Part shown: positions 2,350 to 6,022 of the stretch, in pieces
How positions within the stretch are numbered: the first letter of the stretch is position 1
Layout: each line of letters opens with the position of its first letter
Source: a virus
Lineage: Duplodnaviria > Heunggongvirae > Uroviricota > Caudoviricetes
Strand: one strand, 5' to 3'
Virus record (IMG/VR): IMGVR_UViG_3300029249_000134
Coordinates: 1-6,295 of that record
Length of the DNA stretch: 6,295 bases
Position numbers and translations under genes: made by a program
The notes under the pieces: model-generated
Told to the model about the DNA's origin: nothing
Database searches by the model: none
Seen by the model: the letters and a program-made list of their open reading frames with translations, nothing else

Positions 2350-2361
2350 AGGTCGCCGCCC
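2350..2361. other. cosN cohesive-end site (12-nt overhang GGGCGGCGACCT on the minus strand), within a 45-bp block (2317-2361) identical to the lambda left end
   Basis: Reverse complement of 2317-2361 is GGGCGGCGACCTCGCGGGTTTTCGCTATTTATGAAAATTTTCCGG, matching the lambda genome start from memory. The adjacent 2362-2370 (reverse complement ccggttacg) resembles the lambda right-end terminus. Lies ~185 bp upstream of the Nu1-like start, as in lambda. Confidence 0.85.
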
Positions 2362-2567: not shown

Positions 2568-2753
2568 ATGTCATCAAAGAACAGAACCCGCAGAACAACA
2601 ACCCGCAACATCCGATTTCCAAACCAGATGATTGAACAAATTAACATCGCTCTTGATCTGAAAGGTTCAGGAAACTTTTCAGCGTGGGTTATTGAAGCCT
2701 GCAGAAGAAGGCTGTCAACAGAGAGTTCGGGTATGAATTACATAATTAAGTAA
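2568..2753 (+). CDS. Small (61 aa) basic protein, ribbon-helix-helix-like putative DNA-binding protein
   Basis: ATG at 2568 preceded by GGGGAAA with 7-nt spacing. Sequence MSSKNRTRRTTTRNIRFPNQMIEQINIALDLKGSGNFSAWVIEACRRRL has a basic N-terminal tail, a short strand (RNIRFP) and two helices, consistent with an Arc/MetJ/CopG-type fold. Opposite strand to the Nu1-like gene. Positionally reminiscent of ylcI/ynfO next to nohD/nohA in E. coli K-12 cryptic prophages, but the sequence match is not verified. Confidence 0.6.
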   Translation: MSSKNRTRRTTTRNIRFPNQMIEQINIALDLKGSGNFSAWVIEACRRRLSTESSGMNYIIK

Positions 2754-3382
2754 CATGGTGTTCACAGAACACGCAGTTACCGGACACATCAGTTTTCCAT
2801 TCGCTCCCCGGCAGTACAGGCTTCCCCTCTGACGGGATAGCCTGAAAAAATAACACAGAAAATTATTTGTTATAATTAATATAACTTACTCAAAAAAAAG
2901 CGACGAGAAAATCAGCATCAACGAACAATAAGCGCCAATACGTGATAACAAATGGCAGCCATATTTATCTGCAGTATAAGCAATGGACAGGATAACCACA
3001 CCAGAAACCGTCAGCATAAAATCCATTTGAACTTCCCCGGACAAAATCGACTCATCTAAAGATTTACAGCTCTTTTTATTATCAATATGTTAAAAGTAAA
3101 ATAAACAGATGTTCAATAACACGAATACAAAAACGTGCTGAAATTCAATGAATCCATTTCTGTGTCATCAATTAATAGTGATAAACATCCGGCTTCTTCC
3201 ACCATCGCACCGGACATGCGACTATGAGGGGACAACGCCGCGCTCCGTTAACGCGGTAAACCCCGGTGTGTATCGTTTTTGATTATCCCCGCACACTCGC
3301 ACAGAGGAGTCTCCCGGTCGGGCTGCGGTCTCTGTTAATGCGGGAATACGGCGACAATACCGCGCATGGATAATAAGGTCGC

Positions 3383-3607
3383 TCAACACACTGGCTGTAA
3401 TGCAGCGGATACCATGCGGCATTTAGCGGTATTCATCGTACACTCAACGGTTAGCTCTTCATTCGTGGCATTCACCTGAAAGGTCCGGGAGTGTAATTGC
3501 ATACATTTACCACTGAACGAACCTTCAACAAGAACACGACCACGCTGCAAAATACGGAACAGAATTGTTCCCTGAAGAGGCTTTACGGTTACCTGTAATT
3601 TCTTCAT
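3383..3607 (-). CDS. Hypothetical 74-aa protein with four Cys, directly downstream of Rz/Rz1, at the position where lambda has bor on the opposite strand
   Basis: ATG at 3607 with GGAGA 4 nt upstream, 23 bp after the Rz stop. Product MKKLQVTVKPLQGTILFRILQRGRVLVEGSFSGKCMQLHSRTFQVNATNEELTVECTMNTAKCRMVSAALQPVC has no signal peptide or TM segment and is not Bor-like. The track's longer version starts at a TTG (3625). Confidence 0.5.
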   Translation of the reverse strand: MKKLQVTVKPLQGTILFRILQRGRVLVEGSFSGKCMQLHSRTFQVNATNEELTVECTMNTAKCRMVSAALQPVC

Positions 3608-3630: not shown

Positions 3631-4104
3631 CTAGTTAATACACTGAGTGCGGATATATTCCTGCGCCCCTCCCACCTGCTTCTGCATTGTCATCAACCGT
3701 TCTCTGAGGATGAAATAATCCCGTTCAGCGGTGTCTGCCAGTCGGGGGCCGGTTGCATTATCCACGCCGGAGGTGGTGGGGGCTTCACGCACGGAGCCTG
3801 GACAGGTGGCGTTGATCCGCAGGCGCTTACGACCAGCGGCAACGTCAGCGCGAAGAGTTTCATTTTCAGCTCTCGCATCGGCTAATTCCCTCGAGTATTT
3901 TGCATCGAGCGCAGCAACATCGCGCTGGCGCACCTGCATATCAGTAATGGTTGCGTTCGCCAGCTTCAGTTCACTGGCTTTGTTATCGCGCTGCGCTTTG
4001 TAGGTAATCGCGTTATCACGGTAATGGTCTGTTGCCATCCACAGCGCACCACAGGCCACCAGCAGAATAACGATAAACGCGGAAAGCATTCGGTTTATGT
4101 TCAC
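3631..4104 (-). CDS. Rz: i-spanin Rz
   Basis: Product contains [69 protein letters not shown]…[23 protein letters not shown], near-identical in blocks to remembered lambda Rz, with an N-terminal TM segment. GTG start at 4104 overlaps the upstream ORF stop (GTGA); alternative ATG at 4089. Confidence 0.9.
3693..3878 (-). CDS. Rz1: o-spanin Rz1, lipoprotein embedded in the +1 frame of Rz
   Basis: Product [61 protein letters not shown] has a lipobox (VVSA-C) and the proline-rich core shared with lambda Rz1 ([27 protein letters not shown]). Lies entirely within Rz in another frame. Confidence 0.88.
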
Positions 4105-4585: not shown

Positions 4586-5119
4586 TTATCTGTCGATACC
4601 CCAGCACGCCAGCGCGCTCTCCTGGTCACGACGGGATACCTGACCGTAACAGTTGTTTGAACGAATACGGCAGTCTCTGCCACCGTCCTTAATCCACCAG
4701 CGAATCGCCTCACAGGCACCTTTTCGATCGCCTGCATTAATTCGTTTATAAAACGTCGACGGGAAGCACTTACCGGGGCCAATGTTGTACGGACAGAATG
4801 ACGCGATCCCCGCTTTCTGGGGTTCGGTCAGCGGCACTTTGATGTTTTTCTCCACCCATGCCAGCGCCTTGTCACGTTCGATGGCATTAACCCGGTCGCA
4901 TTTTTCCTTTGACAGCTTCATGCCAGGAATAACAGGCTTACCATCCACCAGAATGGCACCACGGCAGATGGTCCAGATCCCCGCACCATCACGGTATGCC
5001 ATGGTGTGGTTACCTTCCTTTTCATCCAGAAACTGGTCGAGGATTTCAGGCGCAGAAGCACCTGCACCAATCAGCGCCAGAACGGCAGCCGACAGGCCGT
5101 ATTTTATTTTTTCGTTCAT
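4586..5119 (-). CDS. R: SAR endolysin (T4-lysozyme-type muramidase with N-terminal signal-anchor-release domain), phage 21 R-like
   Basis: 177-aa product has a weakly hydrophobic Gly/Ala-rich N-terminal segment (YGLSAAVLALIGAGASAP) followed by the catalytic triad spacing E-x8-D-x5-T (EGNHTMAYRDGAGIWT), as in T4 lysozyme and R21. No SD upstream of the ATG at 5119; a 6-bp hairpin (5121-5143) abuts the start. Confidence 0.92.
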   Translation of the reverse strand: MNEKIKYGLSAAVLALIGAGASAPEILDQFLDEKEGNHTMAYRDGAGIWTICRGAILVDGKPVIPGMKLSKEKCDRVNAIERDKALAWVEKNIKVPLTEPQKAGIASFCPYNIGPGKCFPSTFYKRINAGDRKGACEAIRWWIKDGGRDCRIRSNNCYGQVSRRDQESALACWGIDR

Positions 5120-5236
5120 GGGGATTTATCGATTTCTAATCCCTTGATATGTTAGGTATATAATCCAACACTCATGGTCGCTCTCATAAACATATCCCTT
5201 GAGACGCAGCAGATTACAACAAATGAAGCCATATAA

Positions 5237-5551
5237 ATGAACAGTAAAGAAAGTTTGCGCAGAAGATTTTTACAACTAATGACAGAAAACGTTAAATCAG
5301 AGTTACTTCTTCTGATGGCAGATAATAACGAAGCAACAAGCAGCATTCTTGCAGACCCTTACGGTAAGATCTCACATAAAACGCTGGATATTATTACCAC
5401 AACATTAACACCGCTGATGCTTCAACGGCTGAAACATAATATCAACGCATGGGTTAATGAAGAATTAAGTCCTCCCTGCTTATGGGATTCTCGTTACGCA
5501 TGTCAGCAAAAAATGCGAATTTTCAACTTACTATCACCAAAGCTCAGGTAG
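5237..5551 (+). CDS. Hypothetical 104-aa protein encoded opposite to the lysis genes inside an AT-rich insert between holin and endolysin (candidate moron)
   Basis: Track ORF MNSKESLRRRFLQLMTENVKSELLLLMADNNEATSSILADPYGKISHKTLDIITTTLTPLMLQRLKHNINAWVNEELSPPCLWDSRYACQQKMRIFNLLSPKLR. Protein-like composition but weak RBS. Consensus TATAAT at 5159-5164 upstream; 8-bp hairpin 5557-5586 right after the stop. Position and size resemble ydfR between essQ and rrrQ in K-12 Qin, but that is from memory and unverified. Confidence 0.45.
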   Translation: MNSKESLRRRFLQLMTENVKSELLLLMADNNEATSSILADPYGKISHKTLDIITTTLTPLMLQRLKHNINAWVNEELSPPCLWDSRYACQQKMRIFNLLSPKLR

Positions 5552-5556
5552 CCATA

Positions 5557-5586
5557 AAATCCTGCCCTTCATGGCATACAGGATTT
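5557..5586. terminator. Hairpin (8-bp stem AAATCCTG / CAGGATTT, 14-nt loop) immediately 3' of the 5237-5551 ORF; weak terminator candidate
   Basis: Arms 5557-5564 and 5579-5586 are perfectly complementary; tails are only weakly U-rich on either strand. Confidence 0.25.
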
Positions 5587-5806
5587 CAATGGAATCACAA
5601 TGACCAACTCTTGCACAGCTGTATCCCTGACTCCCCGACAACTCAGATTTTCAGTATCTGCTGCTATCTAAAGAGAAAGCGCACAAATGCAAGGGTCTTT
5701 CATCACGTCCTGTTATTGATTGCCTGTGACCTTTTCTCACCTCATGGAACGTTTTTTCAGTTAGAAATATTCATTTTACAACCAGTTCGTATTGTTTATT
5801 CATCGA

Positions 5807-6022
5807 CTACTCTCCCCGCGCCACCTTACGACGGTCCTCTCTGATTTTGAAATACAGGTTAGTCAGATACGTCAGCAGGCCAAACAGCAGACTCCCCAGC
5901 ACACCTATCGCCACCCACTGGGACGGAGAGACTTTGTCCAGCAGCTGCAGTAACCAGTATCCCGTCCCCACCGCTGACGTGGTGTATGACACACCCGTTG
6001 TGATTTTTTCCATCTGGTACAT
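5807..6022 (-). CDS. S: Class II holin / pinholin, phage 21 S-like, with dual-start motif (Met1 and Met4)
   Basis: 71-aa product [71 protein letters not shown] has two TM segments and a basic C-terminus, closely resembling remembered S21. GGGAGA lies 6 nt upstream of the ATG at 6022; second ATG at 6013. Pinholins characteristically pair with SAR endolysins. Confidence 0.9.

What the first reader, a model, noticed from the sequence alone, without database searches (positions are those of the whole stretch)
2850..3180. Very AT-rich ~330 bp island between the RHH-like gene and the 74-aa ORF, with a candidate 46-aa hydrophobic minus-strand ORF
This stretch is far more AT-rich than the flanking coding DNA and holds no ORF above the track threshold. 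Manual reading finds a minus-strand ORF (ATG at 3026, stop at 2886-2888) preceded by GGGGAAG with a 5-nt spacer, encoding MDFMLTVSGVVILSIAYTADKYGCHLLSRIGAYCSLMLIFSSLFFE: two hydrophobic segments, reminiscent of small membrane toxins or regulators. A consensus TATAAT (2871-2876) and other promoter-like hexamers occur nearby. Candidates are a small-protein gene, a small-RNA locus or an H-NS-silenced moron control region.
Basis: partly seen in the sequence, partly recalled or inferred. Interest (0 to 1): 0.42.

Follow-up and report, generated by a model that had tools for sequence, protein, structure and literature searches.

The report
Small membrane-protein gene in a prophage insert
The AT-rich stretch is a roughly 430-bp extra cassette found in some E. 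coli lambda-like prophages that carries a real, selectively maintained gene for a 45-46-residue two-helix membrane protein of unknown role; this is an ordinary kind of prophage accessory gene, already annotated as "hypothetical protein".

Summary
Window 2850-3180 has 32% GC, the lowest of any 331-nt stretch, and the minus-strand ORF 3026->2886 with its GGGGAAG Shine-Dalgarno is as described. The ORF is RefSeq WP_000347013.1 (hypothetical protein). It lies in a ~430-bp cassette (2754-3180) between the stop codon of ylcI (DUF3950) and a conserved late-strand element; lambda and phage 569R3 lack the cassette. It occurs in 734 of 5,426 complete E. coli genomes, always in this context, and in no other species representative. 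Four lineages (down to 74% aa identity) keep the frame: 15 synonymous vs 14 non-synonymous events (neutral 8.5 +/- 2.4; P=0.007). AlphaFold gives a two-helix hairpin (pLDDT 85.5) with positive charges in the loop. A 34-nt AT-rich core upstream (3073-3106) is 32/34 invariant and holds -10-like and IHF-like motifs. Best reading: a moron-type small inner-membrane protein gene, function unknown; a type I toxin or lysis accessory is not excluded. In passing: the adjacent GC block (3187-3360, minus) is a covariation-supported structured RNA found across lambdoid phages and absent from Rfam.

The parts
2754..3180 (.). AT-rich insertion cassette (moron-like island) between the ylcI stop codon and the conserved late-strand RNA element
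   Evidence: Alignment A2: absent in phage 569R3 and replaced by unrelated ~240-bp AT-rich DNA in Stx2_EH1846. In lambda the ylcI-like stop codon abuts the GC block. Window 3181-3192 ATAAACATCCGG matches lambda TAAACATCCCGG. GC is 0.32.
2886..3026 (-). smORF: 46-aa two-helix hydrophobic protein MDFMLTVSGVVILSIAYTADKYGCHLLSRIGAYCSLMLIFSSLFFE (RefSeq WP_000347013.1); the 45-aa allele is WP_000347012.1
   Evidence: ORF and annotation; integrity and purifying selection; helices 2-21 and 25-44, pLDDT 85.5.
3032..3038 (-). Shine-Dalgarno-like GGGGAAG, 5 nt before the ATG
   Evidence: A G-rich tract is kept in all lineages: GAGGAAG in EDL933, GGGGAAT in L146, GGGGAAC in SHP24, and weakened to GGGTTAC in L148.
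2889..2896 (-). T8 homopolymer encoding the C-terminal FF; the T9 allele moves the stop and gives the 45-aa form ending ...SSLFF
   Evidence: the 45-aa allele is seen in O103:H2, O55:H7 and SHP24. Both run lengths meet a stop within one codon.
3073..3106 (-). Conserved AT-rich core upstream of the smORF (candidate promoter or operator). It contains the -10-like GATAAT (3083-3078, minus strand) and overlaps a plus-strand TTTACA-17-TATGTT (3063-3091).
   Evidence: 32 of 34 columns are invariant in four lineages, against 0.57 for non-coding island columns overall. Permutation P<5e-5 against all non-coding columns and 0.011 against upstream columns only. Promoter-like matches come, and none reaches more than 9 of 12.
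3080..3092 (+). IHF-consensus match TATCAATATGTTA (WATCAANNNNTTR) inside the conserved core, preceded by a T/A tract
   Evidence: one of two matches in the window, where 0.34 are expected. One lineage (L148) has ATCGA. Binding was not tested.
2868..2876 (+). Extended -10-like TGtTATAAT pointing antisense into the 3' end of the smORF; specific to one clade
   Evidence: It is removed by a 10-bp deletion in L146 and absent in SHP24 and L148.
2758..2772 (-). Weak hairpin GTGTTCTGTGAACAC plus a T-containing tail between the convergent ylcI and smORF; the only terminator-like site downstream of the smORF
   Evidence: 6-bp stem with 3 G-C pairs. It is not conserved in SHP24 or L148.
2568..2753 (+). 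ylcI/ynfO (DUF3950) gene, convergent left-hand neighbour that always accompanies the island
   Evidence: Pfam PF13132 E=9e-19; NCBIfam NF041551; present next to the smORF in 140 of 146 loci, the remainder being truncated contigs.
3187..3360 (-). Right-hand neighbour: conserved structured RNA element on the late-transcript strand. It is not part of the cassette but defines its boundary.
   Evidence: See Noticed in passing.

Best explanation
The island is a moron-type accessory cassette of E. coli lambdoid prophages. Its cargo is a genuine protein-coding gene for a 45-46-residue protein that forms a helical hairpin in the inner membrane. Inferred topology: the loop carrying K21, H25 and R29 faces the cytoplasm and both termini face the periplasm. 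The gene lies on the same strand as the late operon (holin, endolysin, Rz, then cos and terminase), with no terminator-like site between Rz and the ORF. It must therefore be transcribed as part of the Q-antiterminated late transcript during lytic growth (inferred from lambda biology). The strongly conserved AT-rich core 50-80 nt upstream, which carries a -10-like GATAAT and an IHF-consensus site, most likely gives it an additional promoter or operator of its own, so that it can also be made in the lysogen (inferred). Once made, the peptide most likely acts as other bacterial and phage microproteins of this size do: by sitting in the membrane and binding or perturbing a larger membrane protein. 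That could serve host-surface or entry modulation such as superinfection exclusion, or fine-tuning of the envelope during lysis, rather than any enzymatic role. Shown here: the insertion, the ORF, its conservation and selection, the predicted hairpin and the conserved upstream core. Inferred: expression route, topology and membrane target.
For: Insertion between conserved flanks that are adjacent in lambda and 569R3. Distinct composition. Present in 734 of 5,426 complete E. coli genomes, at 95% identity or more in all but one, inside prophages whose Rz (median 88% identity) and terminase types differ. PGAP calls the ORF. It is the only one of six frames open in both clades. All 145 complete copies are in frame, and the one start-codon variant is ATG->GTG, still a start. 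Pairwise dN/dS is 0.10-0.45. Tree-aware count: 15 synonymous vs 14 non-synonymous events against a neutral expectation of 8.5 +/- 2.4 (P=0.007; jointly with no stop 0.003). Within the main clade the common polymorphisms are synonymous and the non-synonymous ones are rare. Replacements are mostly I/V, S/A, L/V, M/I. The ORF is 80% invariant against 44% for its 3' flank. AlphaFold gives helices 2-21 and 25-44, pLDDT 85.5; GRAVY is 1.11 and charges occur only at the ends and in the loop. The upstream core is 32/34 invariant. No terminator-like site lies between 3027 and 3382 on the minus strand.
Against: There is no expression evidence of any kind. The ORF is absent from the supplements of the Sakai Ribo-seq small-gene study, no paper mentions the accessions or the peptide, and the EDL933 TSS tables could not be mapped. 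The selection signal rests on four lineages and 29 events. For the single window-SHP24 pair alone it is not significant (P about 0.13). No promoter candidate scores above 9 of 12, and none was found by the standard scan on the ORF's own strand. No canonical terminator follows the ORF. L148 has a weakened Shine-Dalgarno. A few database entries are frameshifted (P0010 from O55:H7 DEC5B, P0008, P0004). Nothing points to a particular membrane target. The family has no relatives outside E. coli prophages, so function cannot be transferred by homology.
Confidence: 0.55

Rival explanations
1. The smORF is the toxin of a type I toxin-antitoxin-like module. A small hydrophobic peptide would damage the inner membrane when made, and would be held in check by an antisense or divergently transcribed small RNA from the island. 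Such a module would serve prophage maintenance or abortive infection.
For: Size and hydrophobicity fit. The main clade has a perfect extended -10 (TGtTATAAT, 2868-2876, + strand) reading antisense into the ORF's 3' end. A plus-strand TTTACA-17-TATGTT sits in the conserved core and is divergent from the ORF. The cassette is AT-rich and horizontally mobile.
Against: The antisense extended -10 is lost in three of four lineages. The mRNA region folds no better than shuffles (z=-0.43), unlike the structured toxin mRNAs of hok, tisB or zorO. There is no hit to any Pfam or NCBIfam toxin family at E<=1, no PADLOC hit and no Rfam antitoxin RNA. Known E. coli type I toxins have one transmembrane helix, not a hairpin (own knowledge). 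The 9-nt repeat that could pair a divergent RNA with the start region is at chance level and is not conserved.
Confidence: 0.15
2. The smORF is a late-expressed lysis accessory. It would be made only from the late transcript, insert into the inner membrane and tune the timing or completeness of holin, SAR-endolysin or spanin action.
For: It has the same strand and transcription unit as the holin, endolysin and Rz, and lies about 600 nt downstream of Rz with no intervening terminator-like site. It is a membrane hairpin. Some phage lysis regulators are small membrane proteins (own knowledge).
Against: The cassette travels with ylcI and the cos side, not with the lysis genes. Rz next to it varies from 69 to 100% identity and the cassette appears beside different lysis cassettes. 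Most lambdoid phages with the same lysis genes lack it: only 2 of 398 phage records carrying the neighbouring GC block have it. It has no holin-like charged C-terminal tail and no PHROG lysis-family hit. The conserved AT-rich core upstream is hard to explain if expression came only from read-through.
Confidence: 0.12
3. The ORF is not translated. The island would be a non-coding AT-rich spacer or regulatory region (H-NS or IHF bound, or an RNA locus), with the open frame preserved by recent common ancestry and sequence constraint at the DNA or RNA level.
For: Most copies are 95% identical or more, so intactness in them is uninformative. The single-pair test is not significant. The most conserved part of the island is non-coding. 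There is an IHF-consensus site. AT-rich DNA readily yields hydrophobic ORFs (own knowledge). No expression data exist.
Against: Substitutions are biased toward synonymous changes in this frame specifically, which DNA- or RNA-level constraint does not predict. The start-codon change preserves a start. The homopolymer length change lands on a stop within one codon. The Shine-Dalgarno tract is retained at the right spacing in most lineages. There is no RNA family or fold signal.
Confidence: 0.12

Closest known systems
Phage morons in the Rz-to-cos slot (lambda bor; DLP12 borD, ybcV, ybcW)
   Same: The genomic slot is the same: between the spanin genes and ylcI/cos. In K-12 DLP12 the order is rzpD, borD, ybcV, ybcW, ylcI, nohD. 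In lambda bor sits between Rz and the GC block. Cargo is variable and optional, and its composition differs from the neighbouring genes.
   Different: The proteins are unrelated: Bor is a lipoprotein, YbcV is DUF1398 and YbcW is soluble. bor and ybcV are on the opposite strand. This cassette sits on the other side of the conserved RNA element, directly against the ylcI stop codon. No experimentally shown promoter or terminator exists for it.
Type I toxins of E. coli (Hok/Gef, Ldr, TisB, ShoB, Ibs, ZorO, DinQ)
   Same: A peptide shorter than 60 residues, very hydrophobic, encoded on horizontally acquired AT-rich DNA, with promoter-like hexamers on the opposite strand.
   Different: There is no sequence similarity. 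It has two helices rather than one. There is no conserved antisense promoter and no structured mRNA leader. Toxicity is untested.
Small inner-membrane regulatory proteins of E. coli (AcrZ, MgtS, MgrB, CydX and the like; own knowledge)
   Same: The size range is 30-50 residues, they are membrane-embedded, and they act by binding larger membrane proteins. They are usually missed or labelled hypothetical.
   Different: Those are chromosomal, single-helix and conserved across enterobacteria. This one is a prophage-borne hairpin restricted to E. coli.
Phage membrane proteins that block superinfection (T4 Imm, HK97 gp15, P22 SieA; own knowledge)
   Same: Phage-encoded inner-membrane proteins carried as accessory genes; Imm also has two transmembrane segments.
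   Different: All are larger (80 residues or more) and unrelated in sequence. There is no evidence here for an exclusion phenotype.

Membership tests
Phage moron (Juhala/Hendrix sense) | Extra DNA lying between two features that are adjacent in related phages | tested here: met
   In lambda and 569R3 the ylcI stop codon abuts the GC block. The window has 427 bp in between, and Stx2_EH1846 has a different filler.
Phage moron (Juhala/Hendrix sense) | Nucleotide composition different from the surrounding genes | tested here: met
   GC is 0.32 against 0.485 for the window, the lowest 331-nt stretch.
Phage moron (Juhala/Hendrix sense) | Own promoter upstream of the cargo gene | tested here: inconclusive
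   A conserved AT-rich core (32/34 invariant) carries a -10-like GATAAT, but the best hexamer pairs score only 8-9 of 12. No transcription start data were usable.
Phage moron (Juhala/Hendrix sense) | Own terminator downstream | tested here: inconclusive
   There is only a weak 6-bp hairpin at 2772-2758, and it is not conserved in the second clade.
Phage moron (Juhala/Hendrix sense) | Expressed from the repressed prophage | not testable with these tools
   This needs RNA-seq or a reporter in a lysogen.
Type I toxin-antitoxin system | Small (<60 aa) hydrophobic membrane peptide | tested here: met
   46 aa, GRAVY 1.11, two predicted helices.
Type I toxin-antitoxin system | Cis-encoded antisense (or divergent) antitoxin RNA with a conserved promoter | tested here: not met
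   The antisense TGtTATAAT is lost in 3 of 4 lineages. The divergent plus-strand TTTACA-17-TATGTT is conserved but points away from the ORF, with no conserved complementarity to its leader. No Rfam antitoxin RNA matches.
Type I toxin-antitoxin system | Sequence membership in a known toxin family | tested here: not met
   No Pfam, NCBIfam, PHROG or PADLOC hit at E<=1. The exhaustive HMMER search finds only its own family.
Type I toxin-antitoxin system | Highly structured toxin mRNA or leader that limits translation | tested here: not met
   The MFE of 3075-2754 (minus strand) gives z=-0.43 against shuffles.
Type I toxin-antitoxin system | Toxicity on overexpression, neutralised by the RNA | not testable with these tools
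   This needs an experiment.
Holin / antiholin | Transmembrane domain(s) followed by a charged hydrophilic C-terminal tail | tested here: not met
   The sequence ends ...LIFSSLFFE. The only charges are D2, D20, K21, H25, R29 and E46.
Holin / antiholin | Encoded at the head of the lysis cassette next to the endolysin | tested here: not met
   The cassette already has a class II holin (5807-6022) and a lysozyme (4586-5119). The smORF lies beyond Rz.
Described small-RNA families (Rfam 15, including AgvB, AsxR, DicF, Sok, STnc100) | Match to a covariance model | tested here: not met
   Nothing near gathering score was found. Only matches to eukaryotic families at E>0.5 appeared, even when the island was searched alone.

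The most novel reading that the evidence does not exclude
The 46-residue hairpin founds a previously unrecognised, E. coli-prophage-restricted family of membrane-active microproteins with a defence-type role. It could be a two-helix type I-like toxin or abortive-infection effector, or a superinfection-exclusion factor made in the lysogen from an IHF-dependent promoter in the conserved AT-rich core.
Probability: 0.2. Interest if true: 0.55.

Novelty: new member of a known kind. Interest (0 to 1): 0.3.

Why it matters
About one in seven complete E. coli genomes carries this gene, sometimes in two or three prophages. Carriers include O157:H7, O55:H7, O103, O111, O145 and extraintestinal lineages such as S88, CE10 and APEC O18. 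Even so, it has no name, no family and no literature. Showing that it evolves as a protein moves it from a possible annotation artefact to a testable small membrane protein. If it turns out to affect phage entry, lysis or membrane integrity, it would add a widespread lysogenic-conversion or defence factor. By itself, though, a small hydrophobic accessory gene in a known variable slot of lambdoid phages is what specialists expect to find. The adjacent conserved RNA element, noticed in passing, is the less expected object.

Tried and rejected
1. Homology searches for the peptide gave nothing beyond its own E. coli family or generic helical hairpins: Pfam, PHROGs, NCBIfam, PADLOC, the 5.8-billion-protein word search with two queries, exhaustive HMMER against 1.84 billion representatives and Foldseek against the PDB.
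2. GTDB species representatives held no relative.
3. Literature searches were unproductive. The Sakai Ribo-seq small-gene supplements had no match. The EDL933 TSS tables hold coordinates only, in another assembly, and are truncated, so they were unusable. Accession and peptide string searches found no papers. The Pas, AgvB and AsxR prophage sRNAs map to the Q/pR'/holin side, not here.
4. sRNA idea: Rfam was searched at permissive thresholds and the mRNA region was folded. Neither gave a signal.
5. Mobile-element idea: there are no tandem repeats, and the 12-nt inverted repeat 2850-2861/3157-3168 is at chance level and not conserved in SHP24.
6. A 'slot dedicated to small membrane proteins' was rejected. 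The alternative filler in Stx2_EH1846 has only a 25-aa non-hydrophobic ORF.
7. The 9-nt repeat AATCCATTT (3020-3028 and 3151-3159), considered as a possible antisense pairing site, is not conserved.
8. Single-sequence folding of the GC block was not significant. Its structure emerged only from comparative analysis.

Full report
**Setting.** The window is the late region of a lambda-like prophage of E. coli, read against the direction of late transcription.
- The minus strand carries the large terminase (1-1690), a Nu1-type small terminase (1657-2166), Rz (3631-4104), a lysozyme with a hydrophobic N-terminus (4586-5119) and a class II holin (5807-6022).
- AGGTCGCCGCCC at 2350-2361 is the reverse complement of lambda's 12-nt cohesive end (own knowledge).

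**Observation.**
- Window 2850-3180 has 32.0% GC against 48.5% overall. Only 0.3% of 331-nt windows are as low, and all of those overlap this spot.
- The minus-strand ORF runs from ATG 3026 to TAA 2886-2888 and encodes the stated 46 residues. It is preceded by GGGGAAG (3038-3032) and a 5-nt spacer.
- TATAAT at 2871-2876 (+) is real and forms an extended -10 (TGtTATAAT).

**What the island is.** Alignment with related loci shows that ylcI on the left and a GC-rich block on the right (from about 3186) are shared by many lambdoid phages, while the DNA between them varies.
- Here the intervening DNA is about 430 bp and carries the ORF.
- Stx2_EH1846 has an unrelated 240-bp filler, and phage 569R3 has essentially nothing.
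- In lambda the ylcI-like stop codon directly abuts the block. The window still carries ATAAACATCCGG at 3181-3192, matching lambda's TAA-ACATCCCGG, so the cassette spans about 2754-3180.
- No terminal repeats or other transposon hallmarks were found.
- In K-12 DLP12 the wider Rz-to-ylcI interval holds borD, ybcV and ybcW, so this is a known variable-cargo zone.

**Distribution.**
- The island occurs in 734 of 5,426 complete E. coli genomes, with 1-3 copies each. It is 95% identical or more in all but one; the exception is strain SHP24 at 79%.
- It is found in 95 IMG/VR contigs and 60 metagenome contigs, but in only two records of the phage collection and in none of 185,579 GTDB species representatives.
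- Across 146 fetched loci it always keeps the same neighbours on both sides (3' flank and ylcI; upstream block and GC block). The adjacent Rz (median 88% identity, minimum 69%), the 74-aa ORF (present in 38 loci) and the terminase type all vary.
- It therefore behaves as a module linked to ylcI and the cos side that recombines among different prophage backbones.

**Is the ORF a gene?** PGAP annotates it as WP_000347013.1 (46 aa) or WP_000347012.1 (45 aa).
- All 145 complete copies in the fetched loci keep the frame.
- The variants are a T8/T9 run at the very C-terminus that switches ...FFE* to ...FF*, an ATG-to-GTG start in seven loci (still a start codon) and a single stop-loss.
- Rare frameshifted entries exist in the protein database: P0010 from O55:H7 DEC5B, P0008 and P0004.
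- Four diverged lineages were recovered: window type, L146, SHP24 and L148, down to 74% amino-acid identity.
- This is the only one of six frames open in both clades, and pairwise dN/dS is 0.10-0.45.
- A parsimony count on the four-taxon tree gives 15 synonymous and 14 non-synonymous events. Simulations with the same mutation spectrum expect 8.5 +/- 2.4 synonymous events (P=0.007; jointly with no stop appearing, P=0.003).
- Replacements are mostly conservative (I/V, S/A, L/V, M/I).
- Within the main clade the frequent polymorphisms are synonymous (C34C, G9G) and the non-synonymous ones are rare (T18I in three loci, R29C and Y33D as singletons).
- Across the four lineages the ORF is 80% invariant, against 44% for its 3' flank and 56% for its 5' leader.
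- The single window-SHP24 comparison is not significant on its own (P about 0.13), so the case rests on the combined data.
- I put the probability that this is a translated, selected gene at about 0.8.

**The product.**
- AlphaFold with the small family alignment predicts two helices (2-21 and 25-44) joined by a tight K-Y-G turn, with mean pLDDT 85.5.
- GRAVY is 1.11. The only charged residues are D2, D20, K21, H25, R29 and E46.
- By the positive-inside rule the loop would be cytoplasmic and both ends periplasmic (inference).
- The invariant positions cluster in the turn (ADKYG), the start of helix 2 (LLSRIGAYC) and the C-terminus (LIFSSLFF).
- There is no similarity to any Pfam, PHROG, NCBIfam or PADLOC model or to anything outside its own family among 1.84 billion representatives. 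Foldseek returns only generic hairpins.

**Expression signals.**
- The ORF is on the late-operon strand, and no terminator-like site lies between Rz and the ORF. By analogy with lambda's single Q-antiterminated late transcript, it will be transcribed late in lytic growth (inference).
- A 34-nt AT-rich core 50-80 nt upstream of the ATG (3073-3106) is 32/34 invariant across the four lineages. This is far above the island's non-coding background (permutation P<5e-5; P=0.011 against upstream columns only).
- The core contains a -10-like GATAAT on the ORF's strand, a TTTACA-17-TATGTT on the other strand and a perfect IHF-consensus match, TATCAATATGTTA. No hexamer pair scores above 9 of 12, so the promoter assignment is inference.
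- The mRNA region has no unusual fold (z=-0.43), and no Rfam family matches even when the island is searched alone.
- No usable experimental data were found.

**Interpretation.**
- The best-supported reading is a moron-type accessory gene for a small inner-membrane hairpin protein, expressed from the late transcript and probably also from its own regulated promoter. It would act by membrane insertion and interaction with a larger membrane component. Its biological role is unknown.
- A type I toxin reading shares size and hydrophobicity but fails the tests for a conserved antisense promoter, family membership and structured mRNA.
- A lysis-accessory reading fits the strand and position. It does not fit the cassette's linkage to ylcI/cos rather than to the lysis genes, nor its absence from most phages with the same lysis cassette.
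- A purely non-coding reading is contradicted by the frame-specific substitution pattern.

**Comparison and novelty.** This is a new, unnamed member of a familiar kind: small hydrophobic accessory proteins in variable slots of lambdoid prophages. It is widespread in pathogenic and commensal E. coli but is not surprising in kind.

**By-product.** The GC-rich block that bounds the island (window 3187-3360, minus strand) is worth separate attention.
- It occurs in 398 phage records, including lambda, 933W-like phages (directly upstream of terS) and a Salmonella phage.
- A MAFFT alignment of 33 diverse copies supports a 55-pair, 10-helix structure on the late-transcript strand. 96.9% of cells are paired, against 34-58% when partners are slid. 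Thirteen pairs have compensatory changes against 4.0 +/- 1.7 in shuffles (0 of 500).
- On the opposite strand the same substitutions give C-A mismatches.
- Indels of 10, 2 and 1 nt argue against coding.
- It matches no Rfam family.

Noticed in passing
window 3187-3360, minus strand (late-transcript sense); also L150 469-653 (lambda), L151 898-1082 (P13374), L152 96-280 (SPN3UB): The GC-rich block right of the island is a conserved structured RNA candidate of about 174 nt. It occurs in 398 phage records, always downstream of the lysis genes and upstream of cos or terS. On 33 diverse copies (A8) a 55-pair, 10-helix structure, including a possible pseudoknot or alternative 3' hairpin at 3215-3187, has 96.9% of cells paired (slid controls 34-58%) and 13 compensatory pairs against 4.0 +/- 1.7 in shuffles (0 of 500). 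It is strand-specific (G-U on this strand, C-A on the other), its indels are not multiples of three, and it has no Rfam match. Function is unknown, and it is probably more novel than the finding itself.
   Followed up: partly
window 3222-3422, minus strand: A 66-aa ORF overlapping the RNA element hits PHROG 6954, 'Rz-like spanin' (E=5.5e-13), and some phage records annotate a hypothetical protein or spanin here. Given the non-triplet indels and the covariation, these are probably spurious ORF calls over a structured RNA.
   Followed up: partly
window 3383-3607, minus strand: The 74-aa ORF between Rz and the RNA element is optional cargo. It is present in only 38 of 146 island-bearing loci and absent in SHP24. 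It matches only positions 100-172 of the 291-position PHROG 2571, so it may be a fragment or a single domain of a larger protein family.
   Followed up: no
window 2350-2361: AGGTCGCCGCCC is the reverse complement of the lambda 12-nt cohesive end GGGCGGCGACCT, placing cosN about 190 nt upstream of the Nu1-like gene, as in lambda (read; the identity of the lambda cos sequence is from my own knowledge).
   Followed up: no
window 2889-2896, minus strand: A T8 homopolymer encodes the last two Phe codons of the smORF. T8 and T9 alleles both occur in nature and give 46-aa (...FFE) and 45-aa (...FF) products, because stop codons lie in both frames. This site tolerates slippage and is possibly phase-variable, with minimal consequence.
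   Followed up: partly
window about 5100-5800 (ORF 5237-5551, + strand): A second AT-rich stretch (GC 0.34-0.42) lies between the lysozyme and the holin. It carries an opposite-strand ORF that RefSeq annotates as a hypothetical protein (L001 5880-6152, equal to window 5279-5551). It looks like another moron-type insertion inside the lysis cassette.
   Followed up: no
window 3080-3092, + strand: TATCAATATGTTA is a perfect match to the IHF consensus WATCAANNNNTTR, with a 5' T/A tract, inside the most conserved part of the island. It is one of two matches in the window, where 0.34 are expected. One lineage (L148) has ATCGA.
   Followed up: partly
ylcI 3' end, window about 2718-2753: The C-terminal roughly 10 codons of ylcI differ between island-bearing and island-free phages. 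The cassette junction may therefore lie inside the end of ylcI, giving YlcI a cassette-specific tail.
   Followed up: no
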